A stretch of DNA of 40,572 bases from Sphaeroforma arctica JP610 (Eukaryota), in assembly GCF_001186125.1 (NCBI RefSeq), contig NW_014040519.1, positions 159,075 to 199,646 of the forward strand, in the 5' to 3' direction. Below the pieces are notes generated by a model. That model saw nothing but the letters and a program-made list of their open reading frames with translations. It was not told the origin of the DNA and did no database searches. Every line of letters starts with the position of its first letter. Position 1 is the first letter of the stretch. A program made the translations under genes and the position numbers. Positions 11,941 through 33,344 of the stretch are shown in pieces.

Positions 11941-12169
11941 GCCACGAATATGTAGCACACTCGATGATGACAGTGTTTTGTCAGCACCGGCCTGAATCGA
12001 CCCAGCGCATATCCTCCATCGTCGACTCACTTGGCCCAAGCTTCAAACGGGAATTCACTGGCCACTTCTTCTCACCGATCTTCCCCAAATTAATACAGCG
12101 GCTATGAGAGCCATACCATATGTACATACATTGTAACTTTTCTCTTTTGAGATAAATAATATTATCCCT
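11941..12169 (+). mobile_element. Short 5'-truncated copy of the LINE 3' end inserted in copia C gag
   Basis: Reverse-complement match to 1009-1232 (EYVAHSMMTVFCQHRPESTQRISSIVDSLGPSFKREF vs EYMAHSVVSVFCQHRPELTQRISSIVNSLGPSFKQEY), including the 3' UTR ending aataatattatccct. Confidence 0.85.
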
Positions 12170-13009
12170 AAGATCATGTCTTCTGTAATTTGTACAATAT
12201 TTTCATGTACGGGTCATGTCGATGATGTATATAGTCAACGAGTGAATAGAAACAGGCTTCTTGTCCTACGTCTATTATTCAAACACTACCTGCTATCGTA
12301 GCTCGTATTGCAGTTTGCGCAGCACAGATCACAGACAACGACATCAATATAGATGACGGCGCCATGGTAAGTCACATGTACACGAAAACACGTCACTGTC
12401 TACTTCATGACATTGAACAGGATAGGTTTCCACTGTTAAATATAATAAGGAACATGGAACCCTCCCTATTCTGGGACTCATATACCTGGACTCAGACAAC
12501 ACAACCCCTCATTTTCTAATACAATATGTAAGACTGATCTCCGGGTTTGCGATCGTATTTACAACCCAAAAAAAGGAGATGCCAATGAAGTATTTTCACA
12601 ATAACCGATGGTAGAGAAAGTTTCGTTTCACATATGATCATGATTAATAAAGACAGCAGACGCGCCATTCCCAATAGCTCTTCTGACTGAGTTCAATTAT
12701 ATCATACGTAACACTCTTTACTAAGCGTTACTTGATTTTGACCACAAACATTGATGGCACAACACTCACCCTTCCACGTATAAAGGGTAGCTACTATGTT
12801 CAATACAGCGCTCTTTGTGACTTACTCACGCCCCCGTTACAAAGGTTACTACCCCTCTACCAACACCAACTGCCACACACATAGTCATGACATACGACGC
12901 CTATCACCGTTCTACTGACGACCGTCAACGGTCTAAAACAACTTCATACTTACTCATTTCCCTCCACCATGCGTGGACACCAAAGCCTGACAATTTAACA
13001 CAGCACTGG

Positions 13010-13370
13010 TCACTGCTGCGTGTGATTTCTTGAATTTCACTCTGACAATTGACATCTGCACTGTTCCTATTAATGTTCTATTTCCCTGGTCTATTTCTGG
13101 ACTGATCGGAGGTGAACCTCACCAAAACAGAACTCGCATATGCATTATGCTTCCCTGGTCATTGATCGCCCCTAGCATTCAAGCCAACACTAAAACTAAT
13201 TTTCAAACTGTGATGGTTGTCTCTCTCCGGCCATGCGCTCCTTGGTCGACCGCATTTATAACACATATCCACGGTCAACCTTTAAAAGTCCAAAATACCA
13301 CTGCCAAGCGACAAGGTACCACTGCTGTAGGAAAACCGTCCTGGGTGTGTACTAAAGTGGCACTCCTTGA
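13010..13370 (+). pseudogene. Degenerate MTase-like insert between HH (~12965-12980) and CAIC (13444-13455) of copia C integrase
   Basis: TLTIDICTVPIN (motif I position), RICIMLPWSLI (NPPW position), VMVVSLRPCAPW, GKPSWVCTKVALL; collinear with the copia D and gypsy MTases. Confidence 0.65.
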
Positions 13371-15600
13371 TAACTTTACTACCCATTCTAACCATGGTCC
13401 GGAGGCCATCGACGTCAAACAACATCCGGAGTTTCCTAACCATTGCGCTATATGTGTTAAATTCAAGTTCCGCGCCACTGCGGTCTCTCACTCCTCATCT
13501 ACACACAACGCTTATGGAACTGGCGAAAGACTACATGTTGACATGCAAGGGCCGATCCCGCCTGATCGTTACGGCAACGAATATACACTTAATATGTTCG
13601 ATGCAAGCTTTCATTACGGCCTTCATTCTCTTCTCCCTAATCGCCAAAATATGTCCAAAAACATACAACGGCTTTATACTGTTGTCACTCCTCACTGGAA
13701 ACCCGATACCTTGGTCGCTGACAATGTCTTGGAATTTCACAGTACCTCTACGTATAATCTTATGCATGACCATGCAATGCAGCTTCTCAAGCCCCCGCCT
13801 CGCACCCCCCAGCGTAACGCTAAGATCGAACGCCTACATGATGCTCTAAACAGTTATGTGCGTATACTACTTAAGGACGCTGGTATACATAAACCCTGTT
13901 GGGGCGATACATTTATGTACGCCTGCGATTTTTGTAACCATTGTCTTGGCCGCAACGACACCATTCGCACATCCGCCGAGACATTTATCTAACGATCCGA
14001 ATTCCGTGACCCGAGAGCTCGTTTCGGCTGCCTGGTTGTGTTTAAACTATGGAGCCGTGCTTAAGGCCAGCAGGAATATCTTCCCAGTGCGTGTATGGTG
14101 TCCTTCTAGGACGCACCAGTAACTCCTTTCAGGGCTGCTACTGCATACAAACTCTTGGCAGATTCGGATTCACACTAAATATCTCAGATTTATCACCGAT
14201 CGCAACGTCCAGTGGTCTGCAGATGGAAAGTCAGACTCTCTATCAGAGACACCTAGCTCGTGTGACATCCCTGTCGACTGGATGAACATTGACTCACCAC
14301 TGGGCATTACCAGCGTTTCATTCATCGTGCACCCCTCCCCCTCTCATTGGCCTCTTCAACTCACTCTTTCAAGATGCCATCACGCCTGAACCGACAGGTC
14401 TACTCTCGCTCTCTTTCCTGAACACATTACGCAATAGGACATCCCGCATGTCCGCAACTTTCCCTCCTCCTTTTTCACCAGCTCTACCCATCATTTTTCC
14501 TCCCGAGCCAGTTGCGGCTCCTCTTCCACCGCTTATCAGTATCCCTTCTACGCCCATCACTGTTTTACCTACACCGCATGACTATCAGTGGACTCCTGCC
14601 TCCCAATACTTCCGACCAACACCCTCTTACCGCCCCTTCCTCACCTGCAACCCCTGATTCATCAATGTATCCGACCCCCGGTGCCTATTCCAGTCTCTCT
14701 CCATTGACCTGGACACCCGCTCCTGGATATGTACACCAACACCCTATGTCATCTGTTCCCACGACCCCCTCCTCCAATAGTGGCTTTGGTCACCTTCTAC
14801 CTCTCCATTGGACCCCTGCTTATAAATCCGGTCATCAACATGCATCCAAGTCCCCTATGCCGACTGTCACCTCTCCCCCAGCCCCTATATCTCCGCGTCT
14901 CATCCCACTTCGTTCCCAACACACGAAGTACCCACCTGGCCACCTCCCCCAACCAACTAACACCTCTTCTTACCCCTCCCTCCGCTATTCTTGATGACTT
15001 CCCTTTAACCATTAACTTCCGTCGACAACCCCATCTCGATGCTTCATTCGCTACCTATCTTCTTTATCACCTATTACTCCGTTACGTCCTATCACTACCG
15101 CAGCAAGAAATATCACTCCCACTACCCGCACGTCTCCTAACCTTCTTCCTGGAACTCGATGTTTTACATGATCCTAAATTCTAATACGCTTAAATCTATC
15201 TCTAGCGCCCAGAAGTCCCCCCCCCCTGGGCTGATTGATACGAAGTTATAGAGACAGAGCACAACAACCATCTACGCAATAACCTGGCCGATGTCCTTCC
15301 CCTGTCTGCCGCCCCCTCTTCTACCAAAGTGATACATAGTAGATTTGTTTTTGTACTTAAACGTGATGAACATAGTAAACTCACCAGGTTCAAAGCCATA
15401 ATGGTTGCTTGTGGTGACGAGCAGGTCGGAGGTGACAGCTATACTGATACATATGCGCCGGCTGCCCATTCTATGACGCTTCGTCTCTTCCTAGCTATCG
15501 CTGCATTTACCGGTAAGCAAGTTCATCACTTTGATATGATATCGGCTTTTCTTTACAGCAAATTAGATACACCTGTCTATTTGTTTCCGCCGAAAGGATC

Positions 15601-15934
15601 TGTGGAACTAGGCTACTATGTAGAGTATGGAGAGTAGCTTAAAGATACGAGTCAAAGGATACAATAGACCTCTTCTCAAGCACTGTTACCTCAGCTACGA
15701 AGAGTCCTTCAGCTGAGGGAACCAAACTGAGTCTTTATTTGTGTTTTCTAATTCACTAGAATCAGGTTTCTACTTGAGTGTTTCTCTCACGCGCGGAGTC
15801 CCGGTACAAGTTACCGGTTCTACCACTGCTATTTCTGATGACTCTATTACCAGGAATATTTGAATTTGAATTCCAAAACTCAGTATTTGATGATTCTGTG
15901 GTTTTGGAATTTGGATTGGCTTTTTGATATCTGG
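15601..15934 (-). repeat. LTR family X copy (probable 3' LTR; continues at 23944-23950), truncating copia C RT and split by copia D
   Basis: Reverse-complement match to ~28610-28955. Starts TGTGG where the RT similarity ends. After the TCTGG TSD it ends tgctaca next to gcccccc (PPT-like on the minus strand). Confidence 0.8.
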
Positions 15935-16057
15935 TGATAGAACATATATTTACAAGTAAGTTTATTATCATATTGTAGGTCTAATATGTATTGACACTCT
16001 GACACTCTGACACCAAATATCTCTAAGGTTAGTTTAAGTTTTAAATTCGCTCCAACA
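15935..16057 (-). repeat. 3' LTR of copia D (123 bp; ~57 bp shorter than the 5' LTR)
   Basis: Matches 23759-23938; preceded on the minus strand by AGGAG and the pol C-terminus HHMHFTPHFGIQIQECW. Confidence 0.9.
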
Positions 16058-16103: not shown

Positions 16104-16949
16104 NNNNNNNNNNNNNNNNNNNNNNNNNNNNNNNNNNNNNNNNNNNNNNNNNNNNNNNNNNNNNNNNNNNNNNNNNNNNNNNNNNNNNNNNNNNNNNNNN
16201 NNNNNNNNNNNNNNNNNNNNNNNNNNNNNNNNNNNNNNNNNNNNNNNNNNNNNNNNNNNNNNNNNNNNNNNNNNNNNNNNNNNNNNNNNNNNNNNNNNNN
16301 NNNNNNNNNNNNNNNNNNNNNNNNNNNNNNNNNNNNNNNNNNNNNNNNNNNNNNNNNNNNNNNNNNNNNNNNNNNNNNNNNNNNNNNNNNNNNNNNNNNN
16401 NNNNNNNNNNNNNNNNNNNNNNNNNNNNNNNNNNNNNNNNNNNNNNNNNNNNNNNNNNNNNNNNNNNNNNNNNNNNNNNNNNNNNNNNNNNNNNNNNNNN
16501 NNNNNNNNNNNNNNNNNNNNNNNNNNNNNNNNNNNNNNNNNNNNNNNNNNNNNNNNNNNNNNNNNNNNNNNNNNNNNNNNNNNNNNNNNNNNNNNNNNNN
16601 NNNNNNNNNNNNNNNNNNNNNNNNNNNNNNNNNNNNNNNNNNNNNNNNNNNNNNNNNNNNNNNNNNNNNNNNNNNNNNNNNNNNNNNNNNNNNNNNNNNN
16701 NNNNNNNNNNNNNNNNNNNNNNNNNNNNNNNNNNNNNNNNNNNNNNNNNNNNNNNNNNNNNNNNNNNNNNNNNNNNNNNNNNNNNNNNNNNNNNNNNNNN
16801 NNNNNNNNNNNNNNNNNNNNNNNNNNNNNNNNNNNNNNNNNNNNNNNNNNNNNNNNNNNNNNNNNNNNNNNNNNNNNNNNNNNNNNNNNNNNNNNNNNNN
16901 NNNNNNNNNNNNNNNNNNNNNNNNNNNNNNNNNNNNNNNNNNNNNNNNN
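16104..16949. other. Assembly gap (N run) inside copia D RNase H
   Basis: Run of N. Confidence 1.
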
Positions 16950-19042
16950 GTATTTGGTGTCAATCACGCCTTGTTCCTATAGATCGCGGATATGATGTAC
17001 ACGGATGTCGATGTGTTTCAGTTGTTTTAGCGTGCCCGTGTTGGTAATGACGTGGACAGCAGACTTGTTATCGCAGCATAGTGTGGTTGGGCTGTCAGGT
17101 GCGAGGTTTGAGTTCAGACAGGAAGTTCCGTAGCCACTGTATGTGTTTGGCGGCCTCACTGGCGGCAAAGTACTCGGCCTCAGCAGTGTTATTGCTGACT
17201 GTTTTCTGTCGCCTGCTTTTCCAGATAACGGGTGTGTTGCAAACACGGAGGACATAGCCTGTCGTTGATCGGCGTGTGTCAGGGTAACTAGCATAGTCTG
17301 AGTCTATGTATGTGTCGGTTGATAGGGGTTGTTGACACTTTGCGTATGTGAGTCCAAGTGTGGGGTGTATTTTGAGATAGCGTAGGACTCTGCAGACGGC
17401 GTTCCAGTGGTCCTCGCATGGGTTATTGAGGAACCGCGAAAGGGAGTTCACGGCGAAGGTGATGTCAATACGGGTGAGGATAGACAGGTAGAGGAGGGTG
17501 CCGACGAGTTCGCGATACGCGCAGGGAAAGGGCGGGCCATGATGAGCGGAAAGGATGGTTGCGGGGAAGGGCGTGTGGGTGGCGTGGACAGACTCAAGGC
17601 CGAAGTGCTAGACGGCCTCGTCGATGTAGGAGGTCTGGACAACGCTAGTGGATATATTGTTTGTGACGATGCGACAGCCTAATAGCCAGGTGAGCTCTCC
17701 GAGTATGGAACAGTCGAAGACGGCAAGGAGTTCGCTTGAATATGTCCACATTTTTGCGGGTAAAACCGCAAATAATGAGGTCGTCGACATATATAAACAC
17801 CGTGCAGTTATATGTGAGGGTGCGGATGTGAAAGAGACATCGGTCAGTGTGTGCTTAGGTGAAGCCAAAGGATAGGAGCTTGGACTTGGATCAGAGAAAA
17901 CCAGAGCTTGCCGGACTGCTTGAGCCCGTAGAGGGACTTTTTGAGGGCGACAATTTTGGAAGGGTCAAGGCCGATTTAAGCGGGGCCTGATGGAGCTTTC
18001 ATGTAGATCGGGTGGTCGAGGTCGGCGTGAAGGAAGGCGGTATTGACATCCATTTGCTCTGTGTGCCAGTCCTGGTCGGCGGCAACAGCGAGGAGTGTGC
18101 GGATACTGTCATGAGTGCAGGTAAGTGCGTAGGTCTCCGTGAAGTTTACGTCCTTGGTTTGTGTGAAGCCGCGAACGACTAACCGAGCCTTGTACTTGTC
18201 GATGACGCCATTGATCATCTTTATCTTGAAGACCCACGTAGATGTGACAGGAAAGACGTCAGGTGGGAGGTCAATGGCATCACAAATGACGTATGTGCCG
18301 GTACTGCGGAGGCTGTTAAGCTCGCATTGAATGGCCGCGCGCCAGAGGTCAGTTTTAGGGGATTTCAGTGCTTATTTGATGGTAGTAGGGGTGATTGGTG
18401 TGTTTTGTATAGATTCGCATACACTGTAGACATGCTTGCGCACTTTCTCGAGTTCCTCTTGGTCGGCCTTTTGCTTGCGCGTGAGTGGAGGAGGGTTGGA
18501 CGTAATAGCAGGGATGTCGGTGTGGTGTGTGTTGTCACATGTGTCGATGAGAAGGTTGCGTAGTTCATGGGAGTTGGAACGTTTACGGATGTGTTGTTGT
18601 AGCTGGTCATTGTGTGCATTGCCGAGGATGCGTGATTGTTCCTGTGTGTGGTGTGCGTCAGTGCTAAGTTGTGCCTTGTTCGCTTGCCATGCAGCAGGTG
18701 TTGACTTTGTAGGGCGAGTGACACGCTGAGTGGCGGCTTGGAGGCGATGATGGAGATTAGGGGGTGCAGGGTTGTCGGAGGTCGCCGAAATGGGGTAGGT
18801 GGAGGGCGAAGGTGTGTCCTCTGCGTGTGAACTGGATGTGGTGAGTGGCTCGTGAGTGGGTGCGGGCTCGAGGTCAGTGGATTTGCGTTGTGGATCCGTG
18901 GGGACGGATGGGAGAGTGTCACGATACGTACCTTGGAGATTTGGTCCTCGGTAAAATAGGGACGGGATTTGGAGCCATGTGATTGCCAAAATGGGAAGAT
19001 TCCTTCGTTGAAGGTCACGTGACGCGTGGTGATGACCTGGCT

Positions 19043-19920
19043 TGTGGCGGTGTTGAGCATGCGGTATTCTTCAGGGTTTTTGGAGAAGGGATCGCGAGCA
19101 AGGATAACGCCGAAACGAACTCGTTTACGGAGCTTTTCTTTGTTACTATGATCGATAGACATAGTCATGCAGCCGTAGACTCGTAATGCATGCACATGGG
19201 TGGTGGGTTTGCGGCCGAAGAAGTGCTCGTAGGGACTGGCACGGCCTGGGTTGGTGTCACGAGGAGAGATTTTGGGTATAGGGGTTGCGTGAGACTTAGC
19301 TTCCGCCCATATGTGGCGGGGTTGCTTACATTGGGCGATGAGGCAGAGAGCAGTCTTCATATTGACCTGGTGACCACGTTCAACGCCGCCGTGTTGGGCA
19401 GAGTCGTCCGTGCCGTTGCATAGGATTTGTACTTGATATAGATGGTTCACTCGTTTAAATTCGGCGGAAATGAACTCACCCTGTGGCGGTGTTGAGCATG
19501 CGGTATTATTCAGGGTTTTTGGAGAAGGGATCGCGAGCAAGGAGAACGCCGAAGCGAACTCGTTTACGGAGCTTATCTTTGTTACCATGATCAATAGACA
19601 TAGTCATGCAGCCGTAGACTCGTAATACATGCACATGGATGGTGGGTTTACGGCCGAAGAAGTGCTCGTAGGGACTGGCACGGCCTGGGTTGGTGTCACG
19701 AGGAGAGATTTTGGGGTTAGGGGTTGCGTGAGACTTAGCTTCCGCCCATATATGGCGGGGCTGCTTACATTGGGCGATGAGGCAGAGAGCAGTCTTCATA
19801 TTGGCCTGGTGGCCACGTTCAACGTCGCCGTGTTGGGCACAGTCGTCCGTGCCGTTGTATAGGATTTGTACATGATGTAGATAGTTCACCCGTTTGAATT
19901 CGGCGGAAATGAACTTACCA
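19043..19920. repeat. 439-bp tandem duplication within copia D integrase
   Basis: tgtggcggtgttgagcatgcgg at 19043 and 19482; about 24 substitutions between copies by manual count. Confidence 0.95.
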
Positions 19921-20289
19921 TCGCGGCCGGTGACGATAGTGCATATGCGATGGCGGCCTATGTCTTCAATTCAGGTGTAGAAGCGGTCAAGGGTGGCAGC
20001 GGCGTCGTCTTTGTGTTCAAGGTTTTCCTCGTATTCGAGACCAGAAGTGCGTTCAAAGTAGCGGATGGTATAAGCGTGGCCCCCGTAGCTTTCTTCGAAT
20101 TTCCCTTCAAGGTCGACTTGCCATTCGGATCCGATGTCAGGAAGAGAACGGGGCTTGTTACGAGTGGCTTTCTTGCGCATCTTGCCTCTCGCGCAGGAGG
20201 TGCAAGTGCATTCAGGTTTGCCGGTGTGGAGGATAGAGATGTCAATGGCGGTTTGGAGGTCGGCGGCAATGGGGTCGGCGTATTTGGTG

Positions 20290-20730
20290 GGACCGAAAAT
20301 GGCGACACCAGTGTAGAGCCAGGGTGGATTGGTAACAAACTCTTGGGAGCCATTGGAGCCACGGCGGATGAAAGTGGTGGGCGATGATGGGATGATTTCG
20401 ACGTGAGACTGAAGGTGGTCCATGAGTTGTGTCCACCAGGAGGCGCGCGGTTTCACAGGGAAGACCATGATGACTCGGCCGGCGTCTTTGTCGAGTTTGC
20501 GACAGCTTTTGGGGAAATTTTTCTAGGGTTGATTTCCGTAGAGCTTCTTGTTTGGTTTATGCCAGTTTTGTTTGTATGCGTCGTGATAGTGCGTGTCTTT
20601 GTCGGTGAAGTCTTCGGTACAGTAGGTGGGTACTTGTTTGTTATGTTTGGATGAAAACAAGTCGATGTCGATGGGGCCGAAGGGCTTTTGAACGTGGTCT
20701 TCGAAGAGATCGGGTGCGAGTTGGTAGTCG
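20290..20730 (-). pseudogene. Dam-like N6-adenine DNA methyltransferase domain inserted in the copia D integrase zinc finger
   Basis: DYQLAPDLFEDHVQKPFGPIDIDLFSSKHNKQVPTYCT..DAYKQNW..KLYGNQP* (TAG for TGG), KAVA(K)LDKDAGRVIMVFPVKPRASWW (frameshift-repaired), TNPPWLYTGVAIFG; flanked by HHARFGH (~20805-20825) and CTSC (~20193-20204). Confidence 0.85.
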
Positions 20731-21314
20731 TTGCAGTAGGTTAATGGCGGTTTGATGGGGAGGTTGTTAGCGAGAGCCATAGCTTTGGTGGTGCGTGTGG
20801 ACTGGTGTCCGAAGCGTGCATGGTGGAGGTGGAGGCTCTCGGCTTGGAAGGCGTTGAGTTGGTAGCGGCCGGCGGCCTCGGTGACGATCTGAATGGTGTC
20901 AGTGCCATAGGTGATGTGACTTTCGCCTGGAGTATTGGGTGTGTTGATCTCGGGGAAAGTGACTGTATAGCCATTGCATTGGAGATTGCGGACGGATAGG
21001 ATAGGTTGGGCAGCAGTGGGTAGCACGAGGGTAGGGCCGAGGCCAAGGATGGTACCGCGTGTGTATGCGGTGGTAGTAGATCCGCCAGCGAGTTCAATAG
21101 TATATGTGCCGGACTGAAGGTCAGTTAGGTGATCGGTGGAGGTGACGATGGAGATATCTGCCCCTGAGTTGATGAGGGCGGTGGAGAATGTGGTGGCGAG
21201 GGCGGTGTCGAGTTGGGGCGTCGCGCGCAGAGTGAGAGATTGCACAGTATAGTAGGATGGGAGGGTGGTACTAGAGGAGGGGGCGGGTTGGGTGGCGCGC
21301 GTTGCCCTGGCATC

Positions 21315-23043
21315 TCAGTTGGTGGTAGCGGCAGATGAGTTGCGCTTGCCGCGAATACACGCTTCAGTCGTGTGGCCGGTGGAGTATCTACAATGGTCGC
21401 ATGTGAGTTTTCCTGTGGTGGTGCAGGCATTCCCTTTGTGGTCTTTGCTGCCACATCGGCGACAAGTAATATTGGGACACTCATATGCAGTGCGGCCAGG
21501 CTGGTGGCAGGCGACGCAGTTACCGGTGGTATGGTTTATACCAATGGGTGGGCGTTTGAGGGTATCGGTGCCATTACTACGTGGTTGGAAGCGAGTACTG
21601 GCTACGCCATAGAGAGAGGGACCCCTTAGTACTGCACTGGTATTGATTGCGTGATTGCGAATCTTTGGGACTACGGTGTCAAAGGTGTATGTGTTGTCGG
21701 TAGTGGCCATGATATCCTGTGCGACGAGCTGGAAGCTGTCTGGCAGGGATTGAAGGAGGGAGCAGATATGGTAATATTCAGGCGTAGTGGTGTTGAGGCC
21801 TTTGAGTTGGTCCCTGAGCAGAGTTACTTTAGCGATGCTGTCGTGTCTAAGCAGGGTTGCTGTGGAAGTGTGAGGAGCTGCACTAAGAGTTCCCAAATGC
21901 GGCCAATTGTGACGGAGGTAAAATCTTGGCATATGTGTTGGTAGAACAGACTCGGGGGTTGATCGAGATATATGTGTCATATTGCTCGGGTATGCCGGGG
22001 CCAAGGGATTCGAAAAGGATCGTAGTACCGACGGTGAGCTCGGCATCATCGGCAGTAGTGTTGGGGTGTAGGGTGTGGAGGACGTCGTGCTTTTTCATCA
22101 TATGTCTGAACTGTCTGTGCCAATTAGTGAAGTTTTTATCACCCGTGAGTTTGGTGGCTACATAGGTGTCATTGTATTTGAAGGCTTTGGCAGTGCTGAC
22201 GCGGGAGGCAGGGAGGTTGTGGAGTTGTTGCGTAGATTGAGTGTGAGAGGTACCGGAGGGGGAGTGTGGGGGTGGAGTAGTCGGTGGTGTCTGAGGACCT
22301 GCCATACGGCGAAGCTTTTGCTCGGCAAGAAGGAGACGGTGACGAAGTGTGGTGGAGTCGGTGTCGATGGGCTGAGAGCGTGCTGTGTCAAGTTGTGTTT
22401 TGAGTTGCGCGATGTCTGTATGGGCGTTGTGGAGGGATACCTGTAGGGCATCCATTTCGGCAAGAGTAGCAGTGAGGAAATCATTGTGTTCGTGTCGGAG
22501 ATAAAAGATGGTGGCTTCGAGCTGGACATTGGTGGCACGGAGTTCAGATATAGTGTAAGTGTGGGCAGTGGCTTCGGCGACGGAATCATCGCGGATTTTG
22601 CGAAGGCGCTTGTTGTCGGCGGTGAGATCGGATGTGTCGGGGTGAGGGGATGCGCGAAAGTGATCAAGTTGTTCGTTCAGCGAGTTGCGATCAGCGATGC
22701 AGGCAGTGAAGTTGGCTTGGGTGTCGTCGCGCTCCTTGCGGGCGCTTTCGAGTTTGGTGATGAGAATGTCCTTGTCTTGCTGGAGTTGGTCGAGGATTTC
22801 TTCGAGGTTGGAGGTAGAGTTGGCATCACGCTGTGTACGAGCCTCCTTGAGTTTGTCGAGTAAGGTGTCCTTTTCTTCTTTGAGGACGTAAATGGTGGCC
22901 TCGTGTGCGTCATTAGTGGCACTAAGGGTGTTATATTCAGTGGTGTGCGTGGCATACGCGTCATTTCGTTCAGCGATCGCACGTGTGGTTGCGAGGTCTG
23001 AGAAAGCAGCATGTGCTGCGAGGTATATAGTGATGGGATGCAC
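21315..23043 (-). pseudogene. Copia D gag with long N-terminal coiled coil and three zinc knuckles (frameshifted)
   Basis: ORFs 21883-23043 and 21315-22049; knuckles CVACHQPGRTAYEC, CRRCGSKDHKGNAC, CDHCRYSTGHTTEAC. Confidence 0.85.
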
Positions 23044-23307
23044 TGGTGGGCGGTTGTCATGATCAAGGACGCGGTCAAGAATTTTGTTTAGTATGTTGAG
23101 GTGCTGGTTGGCGTGGCTGATGGATTGATAAGCGTCAAGGCGAGGGAAGAAGTTTGTGTGAAATCTTGTGGCGGAATCGAGGTTTGTGAAAGTAGATCGG
23201 GGTATGAGGACCCCTTTTGGTTGAGTTGGAGGGTGAGATGTTGGTGCGAGGTACGGGGGTGGTTGGGTGGTTGTTGCCTGGGTGGTAGCGACTGAATAAA
23301 AAGTATG

Positions 23308-23732
23308 TGTTAGAGTGTAAGATGGTAGTCTTTGAATAAAGCGTAATTGTATATCTTTATTTACAACCTCACCTTTGGTTTTATACTCAAGGTGTTTGTG
23401 CCAGTGTTCAACCGCTTAGGTTGGCCAGGGTGAAAACTCATATGGTCAGTATGAGAAACCTTTTGCAGAACACTTTAACACTTATATATTGTTCTATAGC
23501 ATAATCTCTGCTACTCGCTCTTACGCCGATCAATCAATGTTGCTTGGCTTTCAGAGCAAATTTCTCCTAGGTATCGGCTTTCGGAGCAATGCTCTCATAG
23601 GAGCAAATGTATTATTAACATGATGTGGTTAATACTTTGATCCGCTTTTCGGAGTGACGCAACTCCTGTGATTTTATTCAAGAAAAAGAGTTTTCTTGCT
23701 ATTGAAACTTGCTTGAGATCTGTAGTCTCTCA
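23308..23732 (-). repeat. Solo LTR family Y inserted in the leader of copia D
   Basis: TGTTAGAG...CTCTCA termini; TSD GTATG at 23303-23307 and 23733-23737; TATAAAA and AATAAA on the minus strand; homologous to 25424-25930. Confidence 0.9.
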
Positions 23733-23938: not shown

Positions 23939-24379
23939 TCTGGTGCTACAGCCCCCCAACTTTGTGCTTCTTAGCCTGAGTAGGTTGATAAACTGATATC
24001 CTACAGTACTAGATCATCTAGAGATTGATGTTTCTGTACAGGGAAAACTCGTCCCTTAGGGGGTTAAGATGAAAAACCTGCCACCATTATCTATTCTTAC
24101 ATATTACCTAATTTAATATTTATACTGTGACGGGAGTTCTCAACCATGCTAATCGGAGTCGGTCTTGACCGGTGCTCTCGGTTGATCTCAACTTGGCTTA
24201 GGAAAACGCATCTCAATGGTGGGTCTACAACCGAGTCTTTGGTCCTTATCCCTCTGGTATGTGGGCGGAGCATACTTCAAGGTGAATACTGTGGGAGTGT
24301 CCCTTGGTATCAGTGAGACTTGGTTAATCCCCCCGCCTCGTGCGCTTTCTTTTACTCACTGATCTTTCATAAGTACTCG

Positions 24380-24540
24380 TTGCCGTTAGATATAGTGTAT
24401 GAACATCAGCATCTGCGATGTCTGACTCATGCGTCCAGGTGTCTAGGTTCGCTCCCCATGTGTCCATTGTAGTAGGTACTCTTGGGACGTTCACCACTTG
24501 GATGGACGGCCTGTGGTCGAGTATCGAGGAAAACTGAGTC
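24380..24540 (-). pseudogene. Chromodomain at gypsy integrase C-terminus (frameshifted)
   Basis: FSSILDHR..QEYLLQW..WGANLDTWTHESDIADADVHTLY. Confidence 0.75.
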
Positions 24541-24566
24541 TTCTCCGATGGTTGTACTTGGTTATT

Positions 24567-24985
24567 GAAAGTAAATTATTCCGGAGCATTGGCTTTTGTA
24601 CGAGTCCAATTAGCTCATCACTGACCGAGTTAGAATATTCCAGGGCTTCCCATCAAGGTTTCAGACAAAATATCCGTTGCCCTCCCTGCATACTATTTTG
24701 TATGGGAAGTAAGTTCTGCCGGAGCATCGTCTGTTTTACGAGTCCAATTAGCTCATCACTGACCGAGTTAGAATATTCCGAGGCTTTAGTCCCATCAAGG
24801 CTACAGACGAAATATCTGCTGCCCTCCCTGCATACTGTTTTGCAGGGAAAGTAAATTCTTCCGGAGCATTGGCTTTTTTACGAGTCTATTTAGCTCATCA
24901 CTGACCAAGTTAGAATATTCCGGGGCCTTAGTCCCATCAAGGCTACAGACAAAATATACGTTGTCCTCCCTGCATACTATTTTGA
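24567..24985. repeat. Tandem triplication, ~140-bp unit, in gypsy integrase C-terminal region
   Basis: ccggagcat...agctcatcactgacc.agttagaatattcc...ctccctgcatact occurs three times. Confidence 0.95.
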
Positions 24986-25423
24986 ATGGCACGCCATAGG
25001 GTGCTGTCATTTTGTTCATGTCAACTTAATAATGAACCTGGACAATGTCCCCTTCCTGGAAATGTACAAACTTCTTTTGGTATTTTTGATCGTATGCTGC
25101 GCGTCTTCTCTTGATATTGCCCAGCATTAGTGTATAGTTGTGGCCTGGTTGCCTCTTCTAGATTCTGCAGTCGCTCCTCCCATGATATTGTCGTACTGGG
25201 TGCGTTCACTGCTGCGTTGTAGTCCGGGAGTTGATTCTGTCTGCGATCAAAGTACACATTAAATCTCGGTGGTTTATGTCGTCTTGATGTGCGCAGATTG
25301 TGACCCATTTGTACGAAGGGAAGTTGTGAGCACCAGTTGCCTGGGGTTTGTTCAACGAATTTTCGTAGCAATTGTATGATGTCTCTATGTAATCGCTCGT
25401 TAGCACCTAAGACTTTAGGTTGG

Positions 25424-25930
25424 TGTTAGAGTACAATGTAGTAGACTTTAAATAAAGTGCAAATGTATGTATTTATTTCTGACCTCACCTTTGGTTTTAT
25501 ACCGAAGGTGTTTGTGCTAGTGTTCAGCCGCTTGGGGTGGCCAGGGTAAGGGGTTTTTCTTTAACACCTGCGGAACACTTTAACACTTCGATGTTTTTCT
25601 ATTTCAACTTCGCTGCAACTAAATCTCACGCTGATCACATGATGCCTTTCCGCATAGGTTGTGACTCACATAGAATCGCAGCTATTATTAATATGTTGTG
25701 GTTGACAGGCTTAATCCACTCTCGGGAATCGGTTGAGAAACTAAATCTGCTCTCGGAAGTCGGTAAAGTAATAACTCAACTCTTGAGAGTAATTTGAGCA
25801 ACTTGATTAGCTCTCGGGAGTGAGCAAACTCTGATGACTTAGCTCTCGGTAGTGAGCTAATTTTGATGACTTCCATAAATCAAAGATGGTTTCTTGCTGT
25901 AAAATCTGACCTGAGACCTGTAGTCTCTCA
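25424..25930 (-). repeat. Solo LTR family Y inserted in gypsy integrase core
   Basis: TGTTAGAG...CTCTCA; TSD GTTGG at 25419-25423 and 25931-25935; removal restores SRPYQPKVLGANERLH. Confidence 0.92.
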
Positions 25931-26519
25931 GTTGGTATGGGCGAGAGACTAGGTGTTGTGTCGGCGCTTGTTCAATGACTTTTGAGAGTATATCATTAAC
26001 ATATTCAGTGCCTTAGTCTGTCTGTATGATTTGTGGGAACCCATGTTCGCACATTATTGGAACCAGCGTGCGTGCTACATACAGTTTCTGCTGATTTGTC
26101 CATCATTGGTCCGAGTATTACATATGATGAGCTAACACATATGTGTGGCCTCTTTTTTGAGTCCAATAGTGGGTTGATGGTGTCCCTTCGAACTCTGTCT
26201 CCTGGAAAAGCGGCTGCGATTAATTGTAAGGGATGAAAACCCTTTTTGTGAATTTTATTTTTGAGACACGGTACACACCCTTCAATGTATCTGTGTACAT
26301 GTTGTTATATTTGTGGCCAATCGTATCCATCTGCTTGCAATTTATTTGCCGTTTCCTCAGTAGTGTAATGTCCCAAGTTGTGGTATTACCCGATGATGTT
26401 GTCGTGTGTCTCGTATTTAGTCTCATTCAATGCATCTCCAGATTTATAACTGCTTGCGATGCTGAAACGTGTATGACAGGTTGTTCCCGCGTTAAGTCAA
26501 AGTATGGAAACTTCACTCA

Positions 26520-26910
26520 TATCTTTGCTACGAATGTGACACCTCATGGGGACTTGCCACACGCTTTCGTGACGTGTTGTTTGTGTTTTCCATTAGCATC
26601 GGTTCTTCTTCTAGGAAATACATGAATTTCGGAAACCACATTGCATTTAGGTAGTAAGGTACACTTATCGTGATGCTGGTTGCCTCTTCAATGAATGTGT
26701 CGAGGACATCAGTATGAGTTCCCAAGGCGGGTTTGCCCATGCATTTACCATTTAATTTTCTGTGCCCACTTCTGTATGAGCGCATTCTGGTTTTTTTTGT
26801 AGTATTTATCTGTGTGTGCATTGCGTGCTGATGCAAACAGATCTACTGTGAGTTTCTCAAGCAGTCTTTCAGCTTCTTTATATAATCTGGGGTGTAGCAT
26901 TAAGTCTATA
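26520..26910 (-). pseudogene. Dam-like N6-adenine DNA methyltransferase domain between RNase H and integrase of the gypsy element
   Basis: DLMLHPRLYKEAERLLEKLTVDLFASARNAHTDKYY..NALIQKW..NAWANPPWELI..DVLDTF..ITISVPYYLNAMWF..CGKSP*GVTFVAKI; DLFAS at 26829-26843, NPPW at 26722-26733. Confidence 0.9.
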
Positions 26911-28609
26911 GCTGATATGGTTAGGGGCATGTTTATTACCAGGGTATTGTACTTTTGGCTGTTGTGTGTTGTTTTGTTCGCGTCTTTTAATTTCTCCGAC
27001 GTTTTGATATTAAATGTGAATTCGTGTAGACATGACAGAAAATATCTGTAATCTGGTTGTTCTTGCCTGGTACATGTATGATGGAAAAATGGTGGTGGGA
27101 TGTCTTTGCTATCCATTTGGCTAGTATTGGGTGTAACATCTATTGATTGTTCATTTGCGTGAGCGCTTTATGATCTGTCTATAGTGTTATGCATCCTCTT
27201 TTGATGTATTCAGAGAAATGTTCGAGACTGTATACCAGTTCTAGTAGCTGTTTAGTGTTTGTACCATAGCGTTGATAGGCTGGGCTCAGGCCTTTAGAAT
27301 AGTATAGAAAAAAATCTTCTGACTCCATCTTAGACTTGAAATAAACATCCTCCTATGCCATAGTCACTAATGTCGTTCATGATCTGGAACGGTCCCCCAT
27401 CAGCTGGATATGAGTGTCGCTGCTCGCGATGGCTTCTTCAAGTTTTTCCCACTTCGTTAAAAGTTCCGGTATCCATAACATGAACATGTTTTGATACATT
27501 TTGCCTTTATTAGGTTGCGGAACTGTTTAGTTGTGCAGGCAAAGTTGGGGACATGGTCACGCATATATTATTCGGTGCAGATCTATTTTTGTTCTGGTTT
27601 GTGGCCAGTCCATCATTATTTTCTGGGGGGGTTTTTTTTTATCAGCTTTGAGTCCTTGTGTGGTGACCTTCACTCTTAGAGTGTTGACCACTTTGGCCAC
27701 GAAGGCACATTTGTTGTGATCGAGTCGGAAGTTGGCTGTATTCAATCGTTTCATTGCTTTAAGATGACTCTTTGGAATTGTGCTGTGAGTGAGTCCAGGT
27801 CGAATGGCGCGGACTTGAGTTAGCATTGCCGCCCTTCTTCACAAGAATGTGAAGAAGTGTGGGTTTGCTTCATAGACTAAGAAGTGATGGAACCTTCCTG
27901 CGAGATCTAGTTTCGAGAAGATATGAGTTCCTTGTAGATTGTGTAATACTTTCTTTATGTTTGGAAGAACGAATTTGCCTTGTTTATATTGATAATTGAT
28001 CTCGCTTAAGTCCAAACATGATCTGACTTTCTTCAGGAGACCTGTTTGGTCATGTTCTCCTGTAGATAAGAAGGGTAAGTTCACCGTTGTCGGTGTTGTT
28101 CGTTTATATAGGTGACATCTTCACATTTTCATCCGTTTGTGGGATATATTTATATGGTATAGGTTTACTTTGGCGTGTCTATTTTGTCTAACATTGATTT
28201 CATTTGCAGGCGCTGCGACTTTAGAGCCTGGCAGGTTACAATATACGTCAGGGGGTATGTTCGCATTGGCCTCAAAGAGGTCTACAAGTGACTCTCTGAA
28301 CCCTTCTAGTTCGTGTTTTTGGTCTTCCTCATGTGGAGTGAGTAGTGATTCCTATTTTGCATCTGTTTTTTTAAGTAGATTTATCAATCCTGCTATGTAT
28401 ATACCTACGAATGGAAGAATGTTCATTCCTTGAAGTATTGGTGCCTCCTTATCTGGTAGGCCCAACACTTCGGAACACTGAGAGGATTTCCTTCCTCCAT
28501 ATTTAATGTCACATACTTGAATTGACCCTGTTCTTTGTATTCTCGCATTTGTTTGTGTTAGTTGTATATAGCCTGGTTGCGCTCTGACTGATGGGTATCG
28601 CATCCAGGG

Positions 28610-28955
28610 ACCAGATTATTAAAGAGCCAATCCAAATCCCGAAACCTCAGAATCATCAAGTATTGAGTATTGGAATTAGGGTTCAAATATTCCTGATATT
28701 AGAGTTATCAGAAATATTAGCGGTAGAACCGGTAAGCTATACCGGGACTCCGCGTGTGAGAGAAACACTCAAGTAGAAACCCAAGTCTAGTGAACTAGAA
28801 AACACAAATAAAGACTCAGTTCGGTTCTCTCAGCTGAAGGACCTTTTCTAGATGAGAAAACCGTACTTGAGAAGAGGACTATTGTATCCTTTGGCTCGTA
28901 TCTTTCAGCTACAATCCTCTCCATACTCTACGTAGGTACAGTTCAGTTACCTACA
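28610..28955 (+). repeat. LTR family X copy inserted in the gypsy protease (left boundary uncertain)
   Basis: Inverted match to 15601-15934; AATAAA at ~28807; ends ...CCTACA; separates DSGA from the rest of the protease. Confidence 0.8.
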
Positions 28956-30516
28956 TTTGTCCATACATAAGCGTTGTGCACCCGAGTCTACATGTTTGCC
29001 ATTTATTTGTATAATAATGTGTAATCTTTGGTCTCGTGGTAAGGAAAGCAAGGATAAAGACTAGTAATTTAAATCATTCGCATTTATTAACAACATTTCT
29101 TTATTTGTATTTACATTCAAATCAGGTCTGCTTCTGTCCACCAATTGTTTCAGGAGTCGTCGCTATCTGTTAGCTCCTAAGGTAATAGGTAGTCGTGCTT
29201 TGCATATCATTCTTGGCACGCTCATCAGCCTTCTCATTTTGATTTGGTGTCTTCATATGACATTGGCTAAATCGATGTGGGGCTGGTGATACCTTACAAC
29301 AAGGACATGCACGTGCTTTGCGCGCCCCTTTCTTCTCATGGGGCTGTCGTATTGTATTGGTGCGCTTTGGTGTGCCATTGTCTGGTCTGTGACGCTTGTG
29401 GGCAGAGGTAGTGGCGTTCTGTGTTTGTGTGAGTGGACCATGTTCGAGTTGTATATCTTTTAGTCTCCGTATATTCGGTCCGCCTGCACATTTGCTACCG
29501 CTCTTATGGATGCTTCTGTAAGAGAGTAGAACACATTTTGTTTCATATCTGATAAATGACCACTACTTCCATCAGGCAGTTTGTCTGCGATTACGTCTAC
29601 TTTGTCTTGTTGACAATAGTACACGAGTGCCTTGTATCTCGCTACCTTATAGTGACATGGACTTAAATAAGAACAGGTCGATACATTGAGGAGTAAACTC
29701 TGTAATGTCTTCGCAATTTTTCATTTTGAAGGAACTATCTTTCGATAACTTCGGAAATTCTGAGGCCTCTTGTAGTTTAGATAGTGCTGGTTCATTAACC
29801 TCGTCACATAAGCGTGAAGACATGATTTCTAGATCACTAATGTATTGACTGGTTTGAATCGCTTCATCCTCTTCGTCATCCCCACACGCATTAATGGTTT
29901 GATCGTATATTTTTCTGAGCTCTGTGTCGACCAGAGGCATGCGACGCTCAGGTTGCTAATAGTAGATGCCCACTCTCATTGTAGACTAGCGATAGCTACA
30001 GGTGCTGTTCCTTCTAGCTTGGTGACGAATCAGCTGAACAGGAAATAATTGCCTTCACAAATGCTCTTATCTATCTCTAAACGCATTGCTGACGCCTGGA
30101 TGAGTACCCCATTAGGTGTCTGTAGTTTCGAGCTGCTACCTGGGGTTGGCTCCCCTGCTTGGCTTTTGTCCACGCCATTCGCGTTAGCGTCACTCCCTTC
30201 ACCACCATACACCCCTGCTCTGGTTGCTGTTGACATCTTGAGTTGTCTGTGTTGTGTCGCAGGTTACTAATAAAGACTTGTGCTATATTCGTCCGAATGA
30301 GCGCTTCACCCCCCTTGTCTTTGCTAGTAACGTAAAAAATAATTCGTTGTAAATACGCTTTGCTGCACTTCCCTGTGAAGTGTTTACTGTTATGTGTTGT
30401 GCGGTAGTTTGTTGCGTTCCTTCCTGTGATTGGGAAGGTGTATTTGTTGTTTGTTTGTCATACTTATTTTGTCACGTATGGTTTTAGACATGTTTTCTCA
30501 CATTGGATAACAATCT

Positions 30517-30982
30517 TATTCTGTCGTGTGTGATCTTAGCTAAACTTATATTCTCATTTGAGATTTTAGCTTCTATTTGACACGTGTTATGATATATTGA
30601 TGTTCGGTCCTATATCGAACGGTTGTGTCTTACAGGAGTCAATTGTGATGTTGTGTCTTACAGGCGTCACTTGTGATGTTCGGTCGTATTGACGTCACCT
30701 TTGATATTCGGTTCCTTACCCATATTCTGTCGTGTGTGATCTTAGCTAAACTTATATTCTCATATGAGATTTTAGCTTCTATTTGACACGTGTTATGATA
30801 TATTGATGTTCGGTCCTATATCGAACGGTTGTGTCTTACAGGAGTCAATTGTGATGTTGTGTCTTACAGGCGTCACTTGTGATGTGCGGTCTTATCGACG
30901 TCACCTGTTATGTTCGGTCGTATTGACTTCACCTGTGATGTTCGGTCGTATTGACGTCACCTTTGATATTCGGTTCCTTACC
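30517..30982. repeat. 206-bp tandem duplication containing ~27-bp subrepeats (tgtgatgttcggtcgtattgacgtcac)
   Basis: tattctgtcgtgtgtgatc at 30517 and 30723; the second copy has extra subrepeats. Confidence 0.92.
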
Positions 30983-31060
30983 CAACTATGTCTGAAATAT
31001 TCTGTGTTCTACTTGAACCTATAAATGCCCTTCTCTGAATCTAATACAGTTCAGTGCGTC

Positions 31061-31703
31061 TGTGCGTCTGTGCTGTTGAGCTAATGTGTTNNNNNNNNNN
31101 NNNNNNNNNNCTAGACATTCGCTGTGACCCTCGAATTCGTGATGTTTCGTTGAGATTTAACATGTTCGTGCAATCTCATAGATATCTATACCCTTGTACC
31201 CAAACATTATTTGTTCATGTATTGGAATGGAGAGATCTGGTCACTTTGTATAGTGTTAACCCTTCTACCTTCGACGTGACGTGGTTACAATGCTGTGCGT
31301 CTGTGCTGTTGAGCTAATGTGTTCGTATTTACAGAGTTTTGTGTTGTAGTCAACTATATTGGAAGCTTATCTATGTTAAATAGCCACTATTCAATCCTTG
31401 TGTGCCCCTCGTACTTCGTTTAGATGTTCGCATTTCAAACCTATTTGATTCTTTGCGTACTAAGTGTTGGAGGTCTTGTTGGATGATGTGTGCTCTGTTG
31501 CTCTTATTGTAATCTTTTACTTCTAGACATTCGCTGTGACCCTCGAATTCGTGATGTTTCGTTGAGATTTAAGATGTTTGTGCGATCTCATAGATATCTA
31601 TACCCTTGTACCCAAACATTATTTGTTCATGTATTGGAATGGAGAGATCTGGTCACTTTGTATAGTGTTAACCCTTCTACCTTCGACGTGACGTGGTTAC
31701 AAT
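31061..31703. repeat. ~412-bp near-identical duplication spanning a 20-N gap, LTR-like end (TGTAACCAC on minus strand)
   Basis: 31111-31290 matches 31523-31702; 31061-31090 matches 31294-31323. Confidence 0.8.
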
Positions 31704-33344
31704 GGTAATAATTAAGCACTCATTTAGTGTCTTACGATCAGTAATGGATGATGCAGATTCGAACATGTCTTCATCAGGCGTTGAATATAAGCCTATATAA
31801 GCGACCAAATACACGAGATGATTTGCCTGACTCGAATTGTGCGGATAAATGCATTTCTCCTCTAATCATGGCACCAATGGTTTGCTTTATGAATTTTTAT
31901 TCCTCGGCCATTGCTGGAGTGTACAAAATTGTCGCTGTTTATTTCTCAGCAAAGTTCGATTCAAGTTCAAGAATGGATCGTGTGTTAAAATGATATGGTT
32001 CGTCTTCTTGTATAAACTTCGTATTTGGATCATTCCAATGCGAAGCTCCAAGATATTGTTTTGGAAAGGGCACATGGCAGAAAATTATCGGTAATATTAT
32101 TAATGACATCCTTATGAAGATTGGCAATCACGGCTATGATCAATGATAACAGGTTTGTCCACAGTGACAAGCATTATAAAACATGCTCGTGAGCCGGGGT
32201 GGCAACACTATCAACATGGCCACCAAATCATTTCACTATATACCAATGCTAAATGTGCAAGGTATAGCACGTGCGAATACAACAGACATGCTATGTACAA
32301 ATACAGAGAAAGGAGAACACACACTGATACGCAATGTACTGCAATGGAGAAAAATGACGCATAGATCTGTGGCAATTTAGACTACTTCGCCGTGAACTTG
32401 CTTGGGCTAGAAATAGCTTGAGGAGAACCCTCGATGTATGTCTACATCTAGGGAAACGAAGGCCGCCACTTGCTTGAGAGTGTTAAGCGGTCTCGGAGAA
32501 ATAGAGGCACAGACACTAAGAAAGTTTACTTGGTATCACAAACCAACGAATACGAATTAGTGGCTTCTGAGTGACAAGCGTGAATACTGAAGGTTCTTAC
32601 AGACGTACGTCCACACTACCTATATTCTACTGTCTACAATGACTTGTGAATATGTGGTACAAAATATCCAGGACTTCCTCTTTATGACCACATGCTTGTT
32701 TTTAGGACTCAAACTTGGGGTTCTCCTTCTTGATCGAACCCTACCTTGGGTCTCTAGCCTTCCCGTTTTCTCAAAGCGAGATCACCCCAAATATCCTTAC
32801 CAGGCTTCTAGTCTAAACCATTTTATTAAAAATTGTCGATAACTACTAAAGATTCGGTCTTTGCGAAAGTACTCGAGGTTTCAACTAGTGTTGCGATTAT
32901 ATCATAGCCTGATGCGAACCATCAGCGAGATATTCGGCGAATGTTTCGCGTAATCTAATTGTAGACAACTTATATCGTACCGATGATTAGTGCAGCCCAT
33001 TCGCGCAAAATCGCAGGCCTCAAATCCAATAGAGTAAACACTTATGATTGATACATGTCACAATGTCTCAGGGCGGCTTGTGATACAGCTCCGGAGATCC
33101 CACTTCATGGACAGCTCAGACTGAGTCTTCTAATCGTACTGGTTTAGTTTTACGGGCTGCAATAATCAAACAGAATGTCGACATCTAGACCGCACATTGT
33201 CCGAGATTAGGTATCCCGGCATCACATCCACAAACATACGCACAAGTGGCCGATACTTGGAAACTTAAAGCCAGCCAGAACCAAAACATAATTGTTTAAT
33301 CTTATTTACTAAGTTTATTGCAATTTTTCTTGAATTACAACCAT

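What the first reader, a model, noticed from the sequence alone, without database searches (positions are those of the whole stretch)
26520..26910. Chromoviral Ty3/gypsy element with a Dam-like MTase (DLFAS and NPPW motifs preserved) between RNase H and integrase
Seen: LTVDLFASARNAHTDKYY..NALIQKW..AWANPPWELI..SVPYY...W lies between RNase H (TDHK) and the integrase HHCC. Established: this RH-MT order is typical of DIRS tyrosine-recombinase elements, whereas this element has a DDE integrase and a chromodomain. Inference: a chromatin reader and a putative 6mA writer were encoded in one polyprotein.
Basis: partly seen in the sequence, partly recalled or inferred. Interest (0 to 1): 0.88.

Follow-up and report, generated by a model that had tools for sequence, protein, structure and literature searches.

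The report
Adenine-methylase retrotransposons, gypsy and copia
This is a dead copy of a gypsy-type jumping gene that carries an adenine-methyltransferase domain, a combination already described in a 2026 preprint, but it also ends in a faint chromodomain, and a neighbouring copia-type jumping gene carries the same kind of domain (a second carries half of it) inside what is likely its integrase zinc finger, where it would mark the element's own new DNA.

Summary
Observation confirmed. A decayed Ty3/gypsy pol on the minus strand reads PR-RT-RH-Dam-HHCC-DDE integrase-chromodomain-like tail. The Dam segment (26499-26901) is broken by 3 frameshifts and 2-3 stops, and the RT catalytic motif is deleted. 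Four relatives carry RT-RH-Dam-IN in one open frame. RT and RNase H are Ty3-like, not DIRS-like. The host is most likely Sphaeroforma arctica. Gypsy DAM-LTRs, including this species' lineage and chromodomain-bearing algal forms, are already described (bioRxiv 10.64898/2026.05.21.726589), and this scan noted one on other DNA. The headline is therefore known. Two additions are not in that preprint's text. (1) This lineage, which the preprint says lacks chromodomains, ends in a divergent one. It keeps only 1 of the 3 cage aromatics, so 'methyl-histone reader' is doubtful. (2) A Ty1/copia element in the window carries a full Dam domain (Pfam E 4e-7) in frame between the HH and CC halves of the integrase zinc finger. 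A sister copy shares the junction, and a second copia family has the C-terminal half at the same site. No intact copia copy was found. Methylase activity is unshown; the preprint's E. coli test was negative.

The parts
28394..29099 (-). Gypsy aspartic protease region, interrupted by an unrelated ~325-bp repeat (28610-28935, 86% to 15616-15935)
   Evidence: tblastn and frameshift alignment to P0001/P0006; self-blastn
27665..28140 (-). Gypsy reverse transcriptase; about 31 residues including the YVDD motif are deleted; 3 frameshifts, 2 stops
   Evidence: 71.5% to P0006 over 158 residues
27027..27473 (-). Gypsy-type RNase H (TDHK at 27178-27167)
   Evidence: 73.0% to P0006; relatives hit PF17917/PF17919 at about E 1e-24
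26499..26901 (-). Dam-like (PF05869) adenine methyltransferase domain of the gypsy element, with DLFA and NPPW; 3 frameshifts, 2-3 stops
26251..26398 (-). Gypsy integrase HHCC zinc-binding domain, whole and downstream of Dam
   Evidence: 56% to P0006; Integrase_H2C2 in relatives E 2e-5 to 2e-3
25098..26203 (-). Gypsy DDE integrase core, split by a solo LTR
   Evidence: 77-79% to P0006
25424..25930 (.). Solo LTR (TG...CA) with 5-bp target duplication GTTGG, related to the LTR of copia element 1 (73% to 23307-23532)
   Evidence: contigs of 4 of 4 runs join 25418 to 25931 without it
24563..24989 (.). Tandem 142-bp duplications in the integrase C-terminal region
24390..24537 (-). Divergent chromodomain-like tail; 2 frameshifts; cage W kept, first and third aromatics absent
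   Evidence: relatives: Pfam Chromo E 0.004-0.015, HP1-beta E 1.7e-5, Atlas Chromo 0.92
21318..22094 (-). Copia element 1 gag
   Evidence: Retrotran_gag_2 E 3.8e-4
20805..20825 (-). Copia 1: HH half of the integrase zinc finger (HHARFGH)
   Evidence: gag_pre-integrs E 0.0065
20289..20729 (-). Copia 1: full-length Dam-like domain, in frame, one stop at the NPPW-like motif (NQP then stop)
   Evidence: Pfam Dam E 4.4e-7, 30.2 bits, above the 28.1 cut-off; PHROG 111 E 5.3e-7; 29.7% to gypsy Dam
20193..20204 (-). Copia 1: CC half of the zinc finger (CTSC followed by ARGK), 201 residues after the second His
19809..20123 (-). Copia 1: integrase core (read by motif and by alignment to copia 2 and gypsy cores; no Pfam rve hit)
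17979..18410 (-). Copia 1: RVT_2 reverse transcriptase, downstream of integrase (copia order)
   Evidence: PF07727 E 8e-27
12960..12992 (+). Copia 2: frameshifted HH-like motif (LHHA / GHQS)
   Evidence: read by eye
13150..13362 (+). Copia 2: C-terminal half of a Dam-like domain; N-half not detectable
   Evidence: score 87 against shuffled 32 +/- 4, max 43 of 30 shuffles; tblastn E 7e-4; no Pfam hit
13444..13839 (+). Copia 2: CxxC (CAIC) and integrase core
   Evidence: PHROG transposase E 0.013
15239..15634 (+). Copia 2: RVT_2 reverse transcriptase
   Evidence: PF07727 E 3.4e-20

Best explanation
This is a decayed Ty3/gypsy DAM-LTR retrotransposon whose intact relatives encode PR-RT-RH-Dam-integrase-chromodomain-like tail in one open frame, and whose Dam domain likely travels in the particle and would methylate adenines of the element's own cDNA or RNA:DNA hybrid before integration. 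Shown: the architecture, the continuous frame in relatives, Ty3-type RT and RNase H, conserved DLFA/NPPW motifs, and a multi-copy family. Inferred: the domain was captured from the DIRS-type retroelement Dam pool without the DIRS RNase H. Inferred, following the preprint's model: the primed 6mA is maintained by host AMT1 and keeps new copies transcribed. The copia elements beside it place the same kind of domain between the HH and CC halves of the integrase zinc finger. It would there stay tethered to integrase, which favours action on the pre-integration DNA. Identity of the element about 0.95; mechanism about 0.45.
For: 4 of the 6 long relatives inspected (P0001, P0006, P0007, P0014) have RT-RH-Dam-IN in one frame; P0013 is a Dam-IN fragment and P0012 an RT fragment. 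P0001's best solved relative is Ty3 Gag-Pol, E 7e-60, whereas a DIRS-like RT-RH-Dam ORF reaches only E 2e-10, to HIV-2 RT, and is 23% identical to P0001. Its RNase H hits the LTR-type profile at only 7.6e-4, against 8e-25 for P0001. Dam has aged like its neighbours: window against P0006, Dam 68.7%, RT 71.5%, RH 73.0%, IN 78.7%. Between distant relatives Dam keeps 59-61% while the following linker keeps 20-26%, which fits purifying selection. The 8 retroelement Dams form one clade against 10 prokaryotic Dams, 100/100. The preprint reports more 6mA and expression on DAM-LTRs than on other LTRs in S. arctica.
Against: No activity has been shown: representative eukaryotic DAMs raised no 6mA in dam-minus E. 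coli, and they lack the N-terminal catalytic and recognition parts of T4/E. coli Dam (preprint). Iyer et al. call DIRS MTases likely inactive and PCIF1-derived (passage). The 6mA enrichment is a correlation and could come from host AMT1 alone. The Dam tree does not resolve donor or order: AU p 0.22, 0.39 and 0.35 for the three groupings. No LTR pair of the gypsy element was found in the window. No intact copia-Dam polyprotein was found.
Confidence: 0.6

Rival explanations
1. The domain is a conserved but non-catalytic, or RNA-directed, module: it binds SAM and nucleic acid or methylates the element's RNA (PCIF1-like), rather than writing 6mA on DNA.
For: Negative E. coli assay and truncated fold (preprint); the PCIF1-origin and inactivity proposal for DIRS MTases (PMC4738411 passage). 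Copia 1 reads NQP at the catalytic motif.
Against: DLFA and NPPW are intact in 5 of 5 relatives that span the domain. Nearest profiles are phage and bacterial DNA methylases (Pfam Dam; PHROG 111 E 3.7e-13). No PCIF1 chain appeared in two PDB sequence searches at E up to 10, though no solved Dam appeared either, so this is weak.
Confidence: 0.25
2. The methylated cDNA is protected in the cytoplasm or nucleus (self/non-self mark against nucleases or deaminases, or an integration signal), and transcriptional activation is incidental.
For: DIRS elements keep Dam in hosts that lack AMT1 and genomic 6mA (preprint). A protective role for cDNA methylation is discussed for DNMT-carrying elements (PMC5890265 passage). 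The placement beside or inside integrase in both superfamilies fits action before or at integration.
Against: DAM-LTRs are enriched in AMT1-positive hosts (9 of 13) and show more expression in S. arctica (preprint).
Confidence: 0.12
3. The Dam segment is a separate nested insertion, or the element is a DIRS/gypsy chimera made by nesting or misassembly.
For: The window is full of nested insertions, such as the solo LTR in the integrase, and RH-then-MT is the DIRS order.
Against: Open RT-RH-Dam-IN frames in relatives from NCBI, Logan, ENA and JGI. Equal divergence across domains. None of the 15 joints listed skips the Dam segment (303 more were not shown), whereas the true insertion shows a joint and many loose ends; a diverged sister contig spans 26572-26991.
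Confidence: 0.03

Closest known systems
Ichthyosporean DAM-LTR lineage (Fernandez-Moreno et al., bioRxiv 10.64898/2026.05.21.726589; whole text read, figures and supplement not seen)
   Same: Ty3/gypsy-like LTR element with a PF05869 DAM in Pol, NPP triplet kept, reported from Sphaeroforma arctica, Pirum and Abeoforma.
   Different: The preprint says this lineage lacks chromodomains (HMMER cut-off 1e-5); this family has a divergent one scoring only E 0.004-0.015. The text never mentions copia. Whether this family is among its sequences could not be checked.
Chlorophyta DAM-chromovirus-like clade and EpiLTRs (same preprint)
   Different: Green algal and euglenid hosts, detectable chromodomains, and an added DNMT in EpiLTRs; no DNMT was seen here.
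DIRS1-like tyrosine-recombinase retrotransposons with MT domain
   Same: Dam placed directly after RNase H; homologous Dam (one clade).
   Different: No protease or DDE integrase in the DIRS-like loci examined; RT-RH-Dam only 23% identical to P0001; Dam ends the ORF there, whereas here it is followed by integrase.
Group II chromodomains of plant chromoviruses (PMC3350952, passages)
   Same: Lack the first and usually the third cage aromatic while keeping W45.
   Different: Described only from plant gypsy elements; common descent with this tail was not tested.
KnitGypsy-Dnmt3 and Symbiodinium DNMT elements (PMC5890265, passages)
   Same: A DNA methyltransferase built into a retrotransposon polyprotein.
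   Different: Cytosine (C5) enzymes, unrelated to Dam.

Membership tests
Ty3/gypsy LTR retrotransposon | Pol order PR-RT-RH-IN with DDE integrase | tested here: met
Ty3/gypsy LTR retrotransposon | RT/RH closest to Ty3 | tested here: met
   Ty3 E 7e-60 for P0001 against a DIRS-like control; by similarity, no tree
Ty3/gypsy LTR retrotransposon | Paired LTRs, PBS, PPT, TSD | tested here: inconclusive
   no LTR pair found in this decayed copy; no DNA of intact relatives available
DAM-LTR (Fernandez-Moreno 2026) | PF05869 DAM in an LTR-element polyprotein with NPP triplet | tested here: met
DAM-LTR (Fernandez-Moreno 2026) | DAM inside the retroelement DAM clade | tested here: met
   100/100 against 10 prokaryotic Dams, with only 2 DIRS-like rows
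Ichthyosporean DAM-LTR lineage | Ichthyosporean host | tested here: met
   a public S. arctica gene model is 100% identical to the adjacent copia piece; S. arctica P0005 groups with the window Dam
Ichthyosporean DAM-LTR lineage | Lacks a chromodomain (as described) | tested here: not met
   divergent chromodomain-like tail; probably a threshold difference, so the family may still be the one described
DAM-LTR (Fernandez-Moreno 2026) | Raised 6mA and expression of insertions | not testable with these tools
   needs nanopore modification calls
Chromovirus | Chromodomain at the integrase C-terminus | tested here: met
   weak but concordant sequence evidence; fold searches inconclusive
Chromovirus | RT within the chromovirus clade | not tested
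   no reference chromovirus RTs at hand
Group I (HP1-like) chromodomain | Three-residue aromatic cage | tested here: not met
   only the W is kept; first position H, S or T, third in a gap
DIRS1-like | Tyrosine recombinase instead of DDE integrase, no protease | tested here: not met
   protease and rve present in relatives, no recombinase domain in their Pfam scans
Ty1/copia (neighbouring elements) | Order gag-PR-IN-RT-RH with RVT_2 | tested here: met
   RVT_2 E 8e-27 and 3.4e-20 downstream of the integrase region; integrase cores read by alignment
Ty1/copia (neighbouring elements) | Dam present in an intact, open polyprotein | tested here: inconclusive
   window copy in one frame with 2 stops over 377 codons; sister fragment P0011; no full-length copy found

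The most novel reading that the evidence does not exclude
Dam capture extends to Ty1/copia, the other great LTR superfamily: in this genome two copia families, only about 25% identical, carry the Dam domain inserted into the loop between the HH and CC halves of the integrase zinc finger, making a methylase-integrase that cannot be cleaved apart, while gypsy carries it just upstream of an intact finger together with an unrecognised chromodomain. Both superfamilies in one host would have converged on methylating their cDNA at the intasome.
Probability: 0.6. Interest if true: 0.68.

Novelty: new variant of a known kind. Interest (0 to 1): 0.46.

Why it matters
The gypsy-plus-Dam headline is already in a preprint. 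What could matter is the copia case. It would add a transfer into a superfamily that an RVT_1-based classification cannot place, and may explain part of the 46% of 'orphan' eukaryotic DAMs in that preprint. A Dam held inside the integrase zinc finger also gives a concrete answer to test for why isolated domains were inactive in E. coli: assay it as a Dam-integrase fusion on cDNA or hybrid substrates. S. arctica already has nanopore 6mA data, so copia-DAM copies can be compared with other copia copies at once. If such copies were counted as 'LTRs without DAM', the published contrast would be understated.

Tried and rejected
No genome is held for the window, so copies could not be counted. Search for a full-length copia-Dam polyprotein of 661-2000 aa: none among 498 candidates (weak evidence, and a polyprotein near 2000 aa could fall outside). 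Metagenome scan with the copia piece: 76 pattern matches, 0 confirmed. Viral contigs with P0007: 4 matches, 0 confirmed. Sister copia copies were not examined in sequencing runs, and the Atlas was not searched with the copia domain, so both remain open. The single-sequence model of the copia piece failed (pLDDT 31.5) and was not used. Fold searches with the 61-residue tail model (pLDDT 67; three strands and a helix) were inconclusive: no E below 0.001, chromodomains among weak rows; best Z 3.8, CDYL2 chromodomain Z 3.4. The window's own tail gave no Pfam hit in one frame, and P0001, P0013 and P0014 gave no Chromo hit at E 0.05. The first Dam tree had a misframed window row and was replaced, which left out the two half-length copia rows and 16 of 26 prokaryotic rows. 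The reading that CNDY at 20735 is the finger's CC, as Pfam's pre-integrase match suggests, was considered: DYQLAP aligns to the Dam start DW.L.P, the sister copy also has Y, and a true CxxC-x2-GK follows Dam; it is disfavoured, not excluded. P0002 and P0003 are repeat artefacts. The recombinase of the DIRS-like loci got no Pfam hit; that label rests on architecture and motifs read by eye. No RNA holder was listed. PMC9289625 and PMC13269885 passages were irrelevant. No tRNA genes.

Full report
Observation. The minus strand of 24300-29100 is a decayed LTR-retrotransposon pol. The N-half ORF alone hits Pfam Dam at E 7.3e-5.

Intact relatives. A search of 1.84 billion representatives with that ORF gave 5 hits: one 1288-aa polyprotein (P0001), two fragments of the family (P0004, P0005) and two repeat artefacts. 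A Dam-region search added P0006 and P0007 (3 of 88 candidates), and P0007's cluster added P0012-P0014. P0001 and P0006 scan as protease, RVT_1, RNase H, Dam (E 2e-14, 4e-15), H2C2 and rve; P0007 and P0014 the same without protease. Aligned to P0006 with frameshifts allowed, the window copy has 17 frameshifts and 12 stops upstream of the solo LTR, and 3 frameshifts and 14 stops downstream, most of the latter inside a tandem duplication. It has lost the YVDD region. It is a dead copy.

Gypsy, not DIRS. P0001's best solved relative is Ty3 Gag-Pol at E 7e-60 over RT-RH. A metagenome scan with the Dam motifs returned 80 loci (best 80 of 174 confirmed); 5 of 80 had an RT beside Dam and 0 of 80 a DDE integrase. 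Those read (L010, L014, L024) have RT-RH-Dam ending the ORF, with an overlapping recombinase-like ORF in L010 and L014, so I use them as DIRS-like controls. L010 reaches only E 2e-10 in the PDB search, is 23% identical to P0001, and its RNase H scores 7.6e-4 on the profile where P0001 scores 8e-25. So the gypsy element took the Dam domain but kept its own RNase H (inference). No RT tree with references was possible.

Not a separate insertion. Domain identities to P0006 are even (Dam 68.7, RT 71.5, RH 73.0, IN 78.7). Among intact relatives Dam keeps 59-80% while the linker after it keeps 20-39%. Contigs of 4 runs cover all 30 bins and show many variant copies. The real insertion (solo LTR 25424-25930, TSD GTTGG) shows as a joint in 4 of 4 runs, while none of the 15 listed joints skips Dam; 303 joints were not shown.

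Host. A public Sphaeroforma arctica gene model (SARC_01068, P0010) is 100% identical to the copia piece at about 20526-20850, and P0005 is also from that species.

What is known. bioRxiv 10.64898/2026.05.21.726589 (whole text read; figures and supplement not seen, and they may bear on the copia and chromodomain claims) describes DAM domains in Ty3/gypsy-like elements in five lineages. These include chlorophyte DAM-chromoviruses and an ichthyosporean lineage in S. arctica that 'lacks chromodomains'. It reports more 6mA and expression on DAM-LTRs in S. arctica, a negative E. coli assay, and a model of priming on RNA-DNA intermediates followed by AMT1 maintenance.

Chromodomain. The C-terminal 50 residues give Pfam Chromo E 0.015 (P0006) and 0.0042 (P0007) over profile positions 4-53, but no hit at E 0.05 in P0001, P0013 or P0014. 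The P0007 stretch matches HP1-beta at E 1.7e-5 with 16 or more chromodomain chains among 18 hits, and the Atlas gives Chromo at 0.92 with 27 of 30 hits in that set. Fold searches were inconclusive. It is 92% conserved between P0001 and P0006. In the HP1 alignment the first cage aromatic is replaced, W is kept and the third falls in a gap, like plant group II chromodomains (PMC3350952 passages). It is below the preprint's 1e-5 cut-off, which likely explains the discrepancy. Methyl-lysine reading is doubtful.

Copia with Dam. The GC-rich element at about 17000-23400 (minus) has copia gag, a protease-like motif, an integrase region and RVT_2 (E 8e-27) in copia order. Read through in one frame with X at 2 stops in 377 codons, it shows HHARFGH (20825-20805), then a full Dam (Pfam E 4.4e-7, above cut-off; PHROG 111 E 5.3e-7), then CTSC-ARGK (20204-20193) and the core. 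The second His and first Cys are 201 residues apart, against about 23-32 in ordinary integrases (recalled). A sister copy on another contig (SARC_02379, 83%) keeps the same HH-to-Dam junction. A second copia family (plus strand, RVT_2 E 3.4e-20; 25.5% identical to the first over Dam and core) has the C-half of Dam just before its CxxC: score 87 against 32 +/- 4 for 30 shuffles. It has no Pfam Dam hit and its N-half is missing. The copia Dam is only 30% identical to the gypsy Dam, so it is not a nested gypsy fragment. In the tree the retroelement Dams form one clade (100/100), but whether copia's came from gypsy or DIRS is unresolved (AU p 0.22-0.39; long branch). Against this reading: no intact copy was found, the catalytic motif here reads NQP then stop, and the fold could not be predicted. 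'Copia' and 'Ty1' occur 0 times in the preprint text; paper searches listed nothing describing copia with Dam (listings and abstract starts only), and the library lacks most subscription journals.

Mechanism. Shown: Dam is an in-frame, conserved part of Pol. Inferred: it is packaged, acts on cDNA or hybrid before or at integration, and the host maintains the mark. The copia placement, if it holds in intact copies, ties the enzyme to integrase and favours action at the intasome. Rivals are a non-catalytic or RNA-directed role (PMC4738411 passage) and cDNA protection (PMC5890265 passage).

Verdict. The finding as posed is real and largely known. The divergent chromodomain is a small correction; the copia insertion is the part worth following. 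Interest 0.46; new variant of a known kind.

Noticed in passing
window 20193-20825 (-) and 12960-13455 (+): Two copia elements with Dam (one full, one C-half) between the HH and CC halves of the integrase zinc finger; treated in the report.
   Followed up: yes
L010:3673-4341 (+): A PHD finger (Pfam E 3.2e-7) lies inside the recombinase-like ORF of a DIRS-like RT-RH-Dam element from a metagenome: another reader-plus-Dam combination.
   Followed up: partly
window 21886-23415 (-): A 510-codon open frame with a long coiled-coil-like stretch precedes the gag of copia 1; no ATG near its start, only weak Pfam hits.
   Followed up: no
window 19043-19919: 438-bp tandem duplication (94.5%) inside the copia 1 integrase.
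   Followed up: no
window 28610-28935 and 15616-15935: A ~325-bp repeat (86%, inverted) inserted in the gypsy protease and at the end of the copia 2 RT; high contig depth; probably another solo LTR or MITE.
   Followed up: partly
window 30517-30984 and 31060-31704: Arrays of 28-bp units and longer duplications upstream of the gypsy gag region.
   Followed up: no
window 37283-38578 (-): Host WD40 beta-propeller ORF of 432 codons.
   Followed up: no
window 1009-1232 and 11945-12169: 85% inverted pair with a protease-like ALVDS motif near 1450 (-): a further decayed element related to copia 2's upstream region.
   Followed up: no
window 16105-16949 and 31091-31110: Assembly gaps (866 N in all); the 3' end of copia 1 runs up to the large gap.
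   Followed up: no
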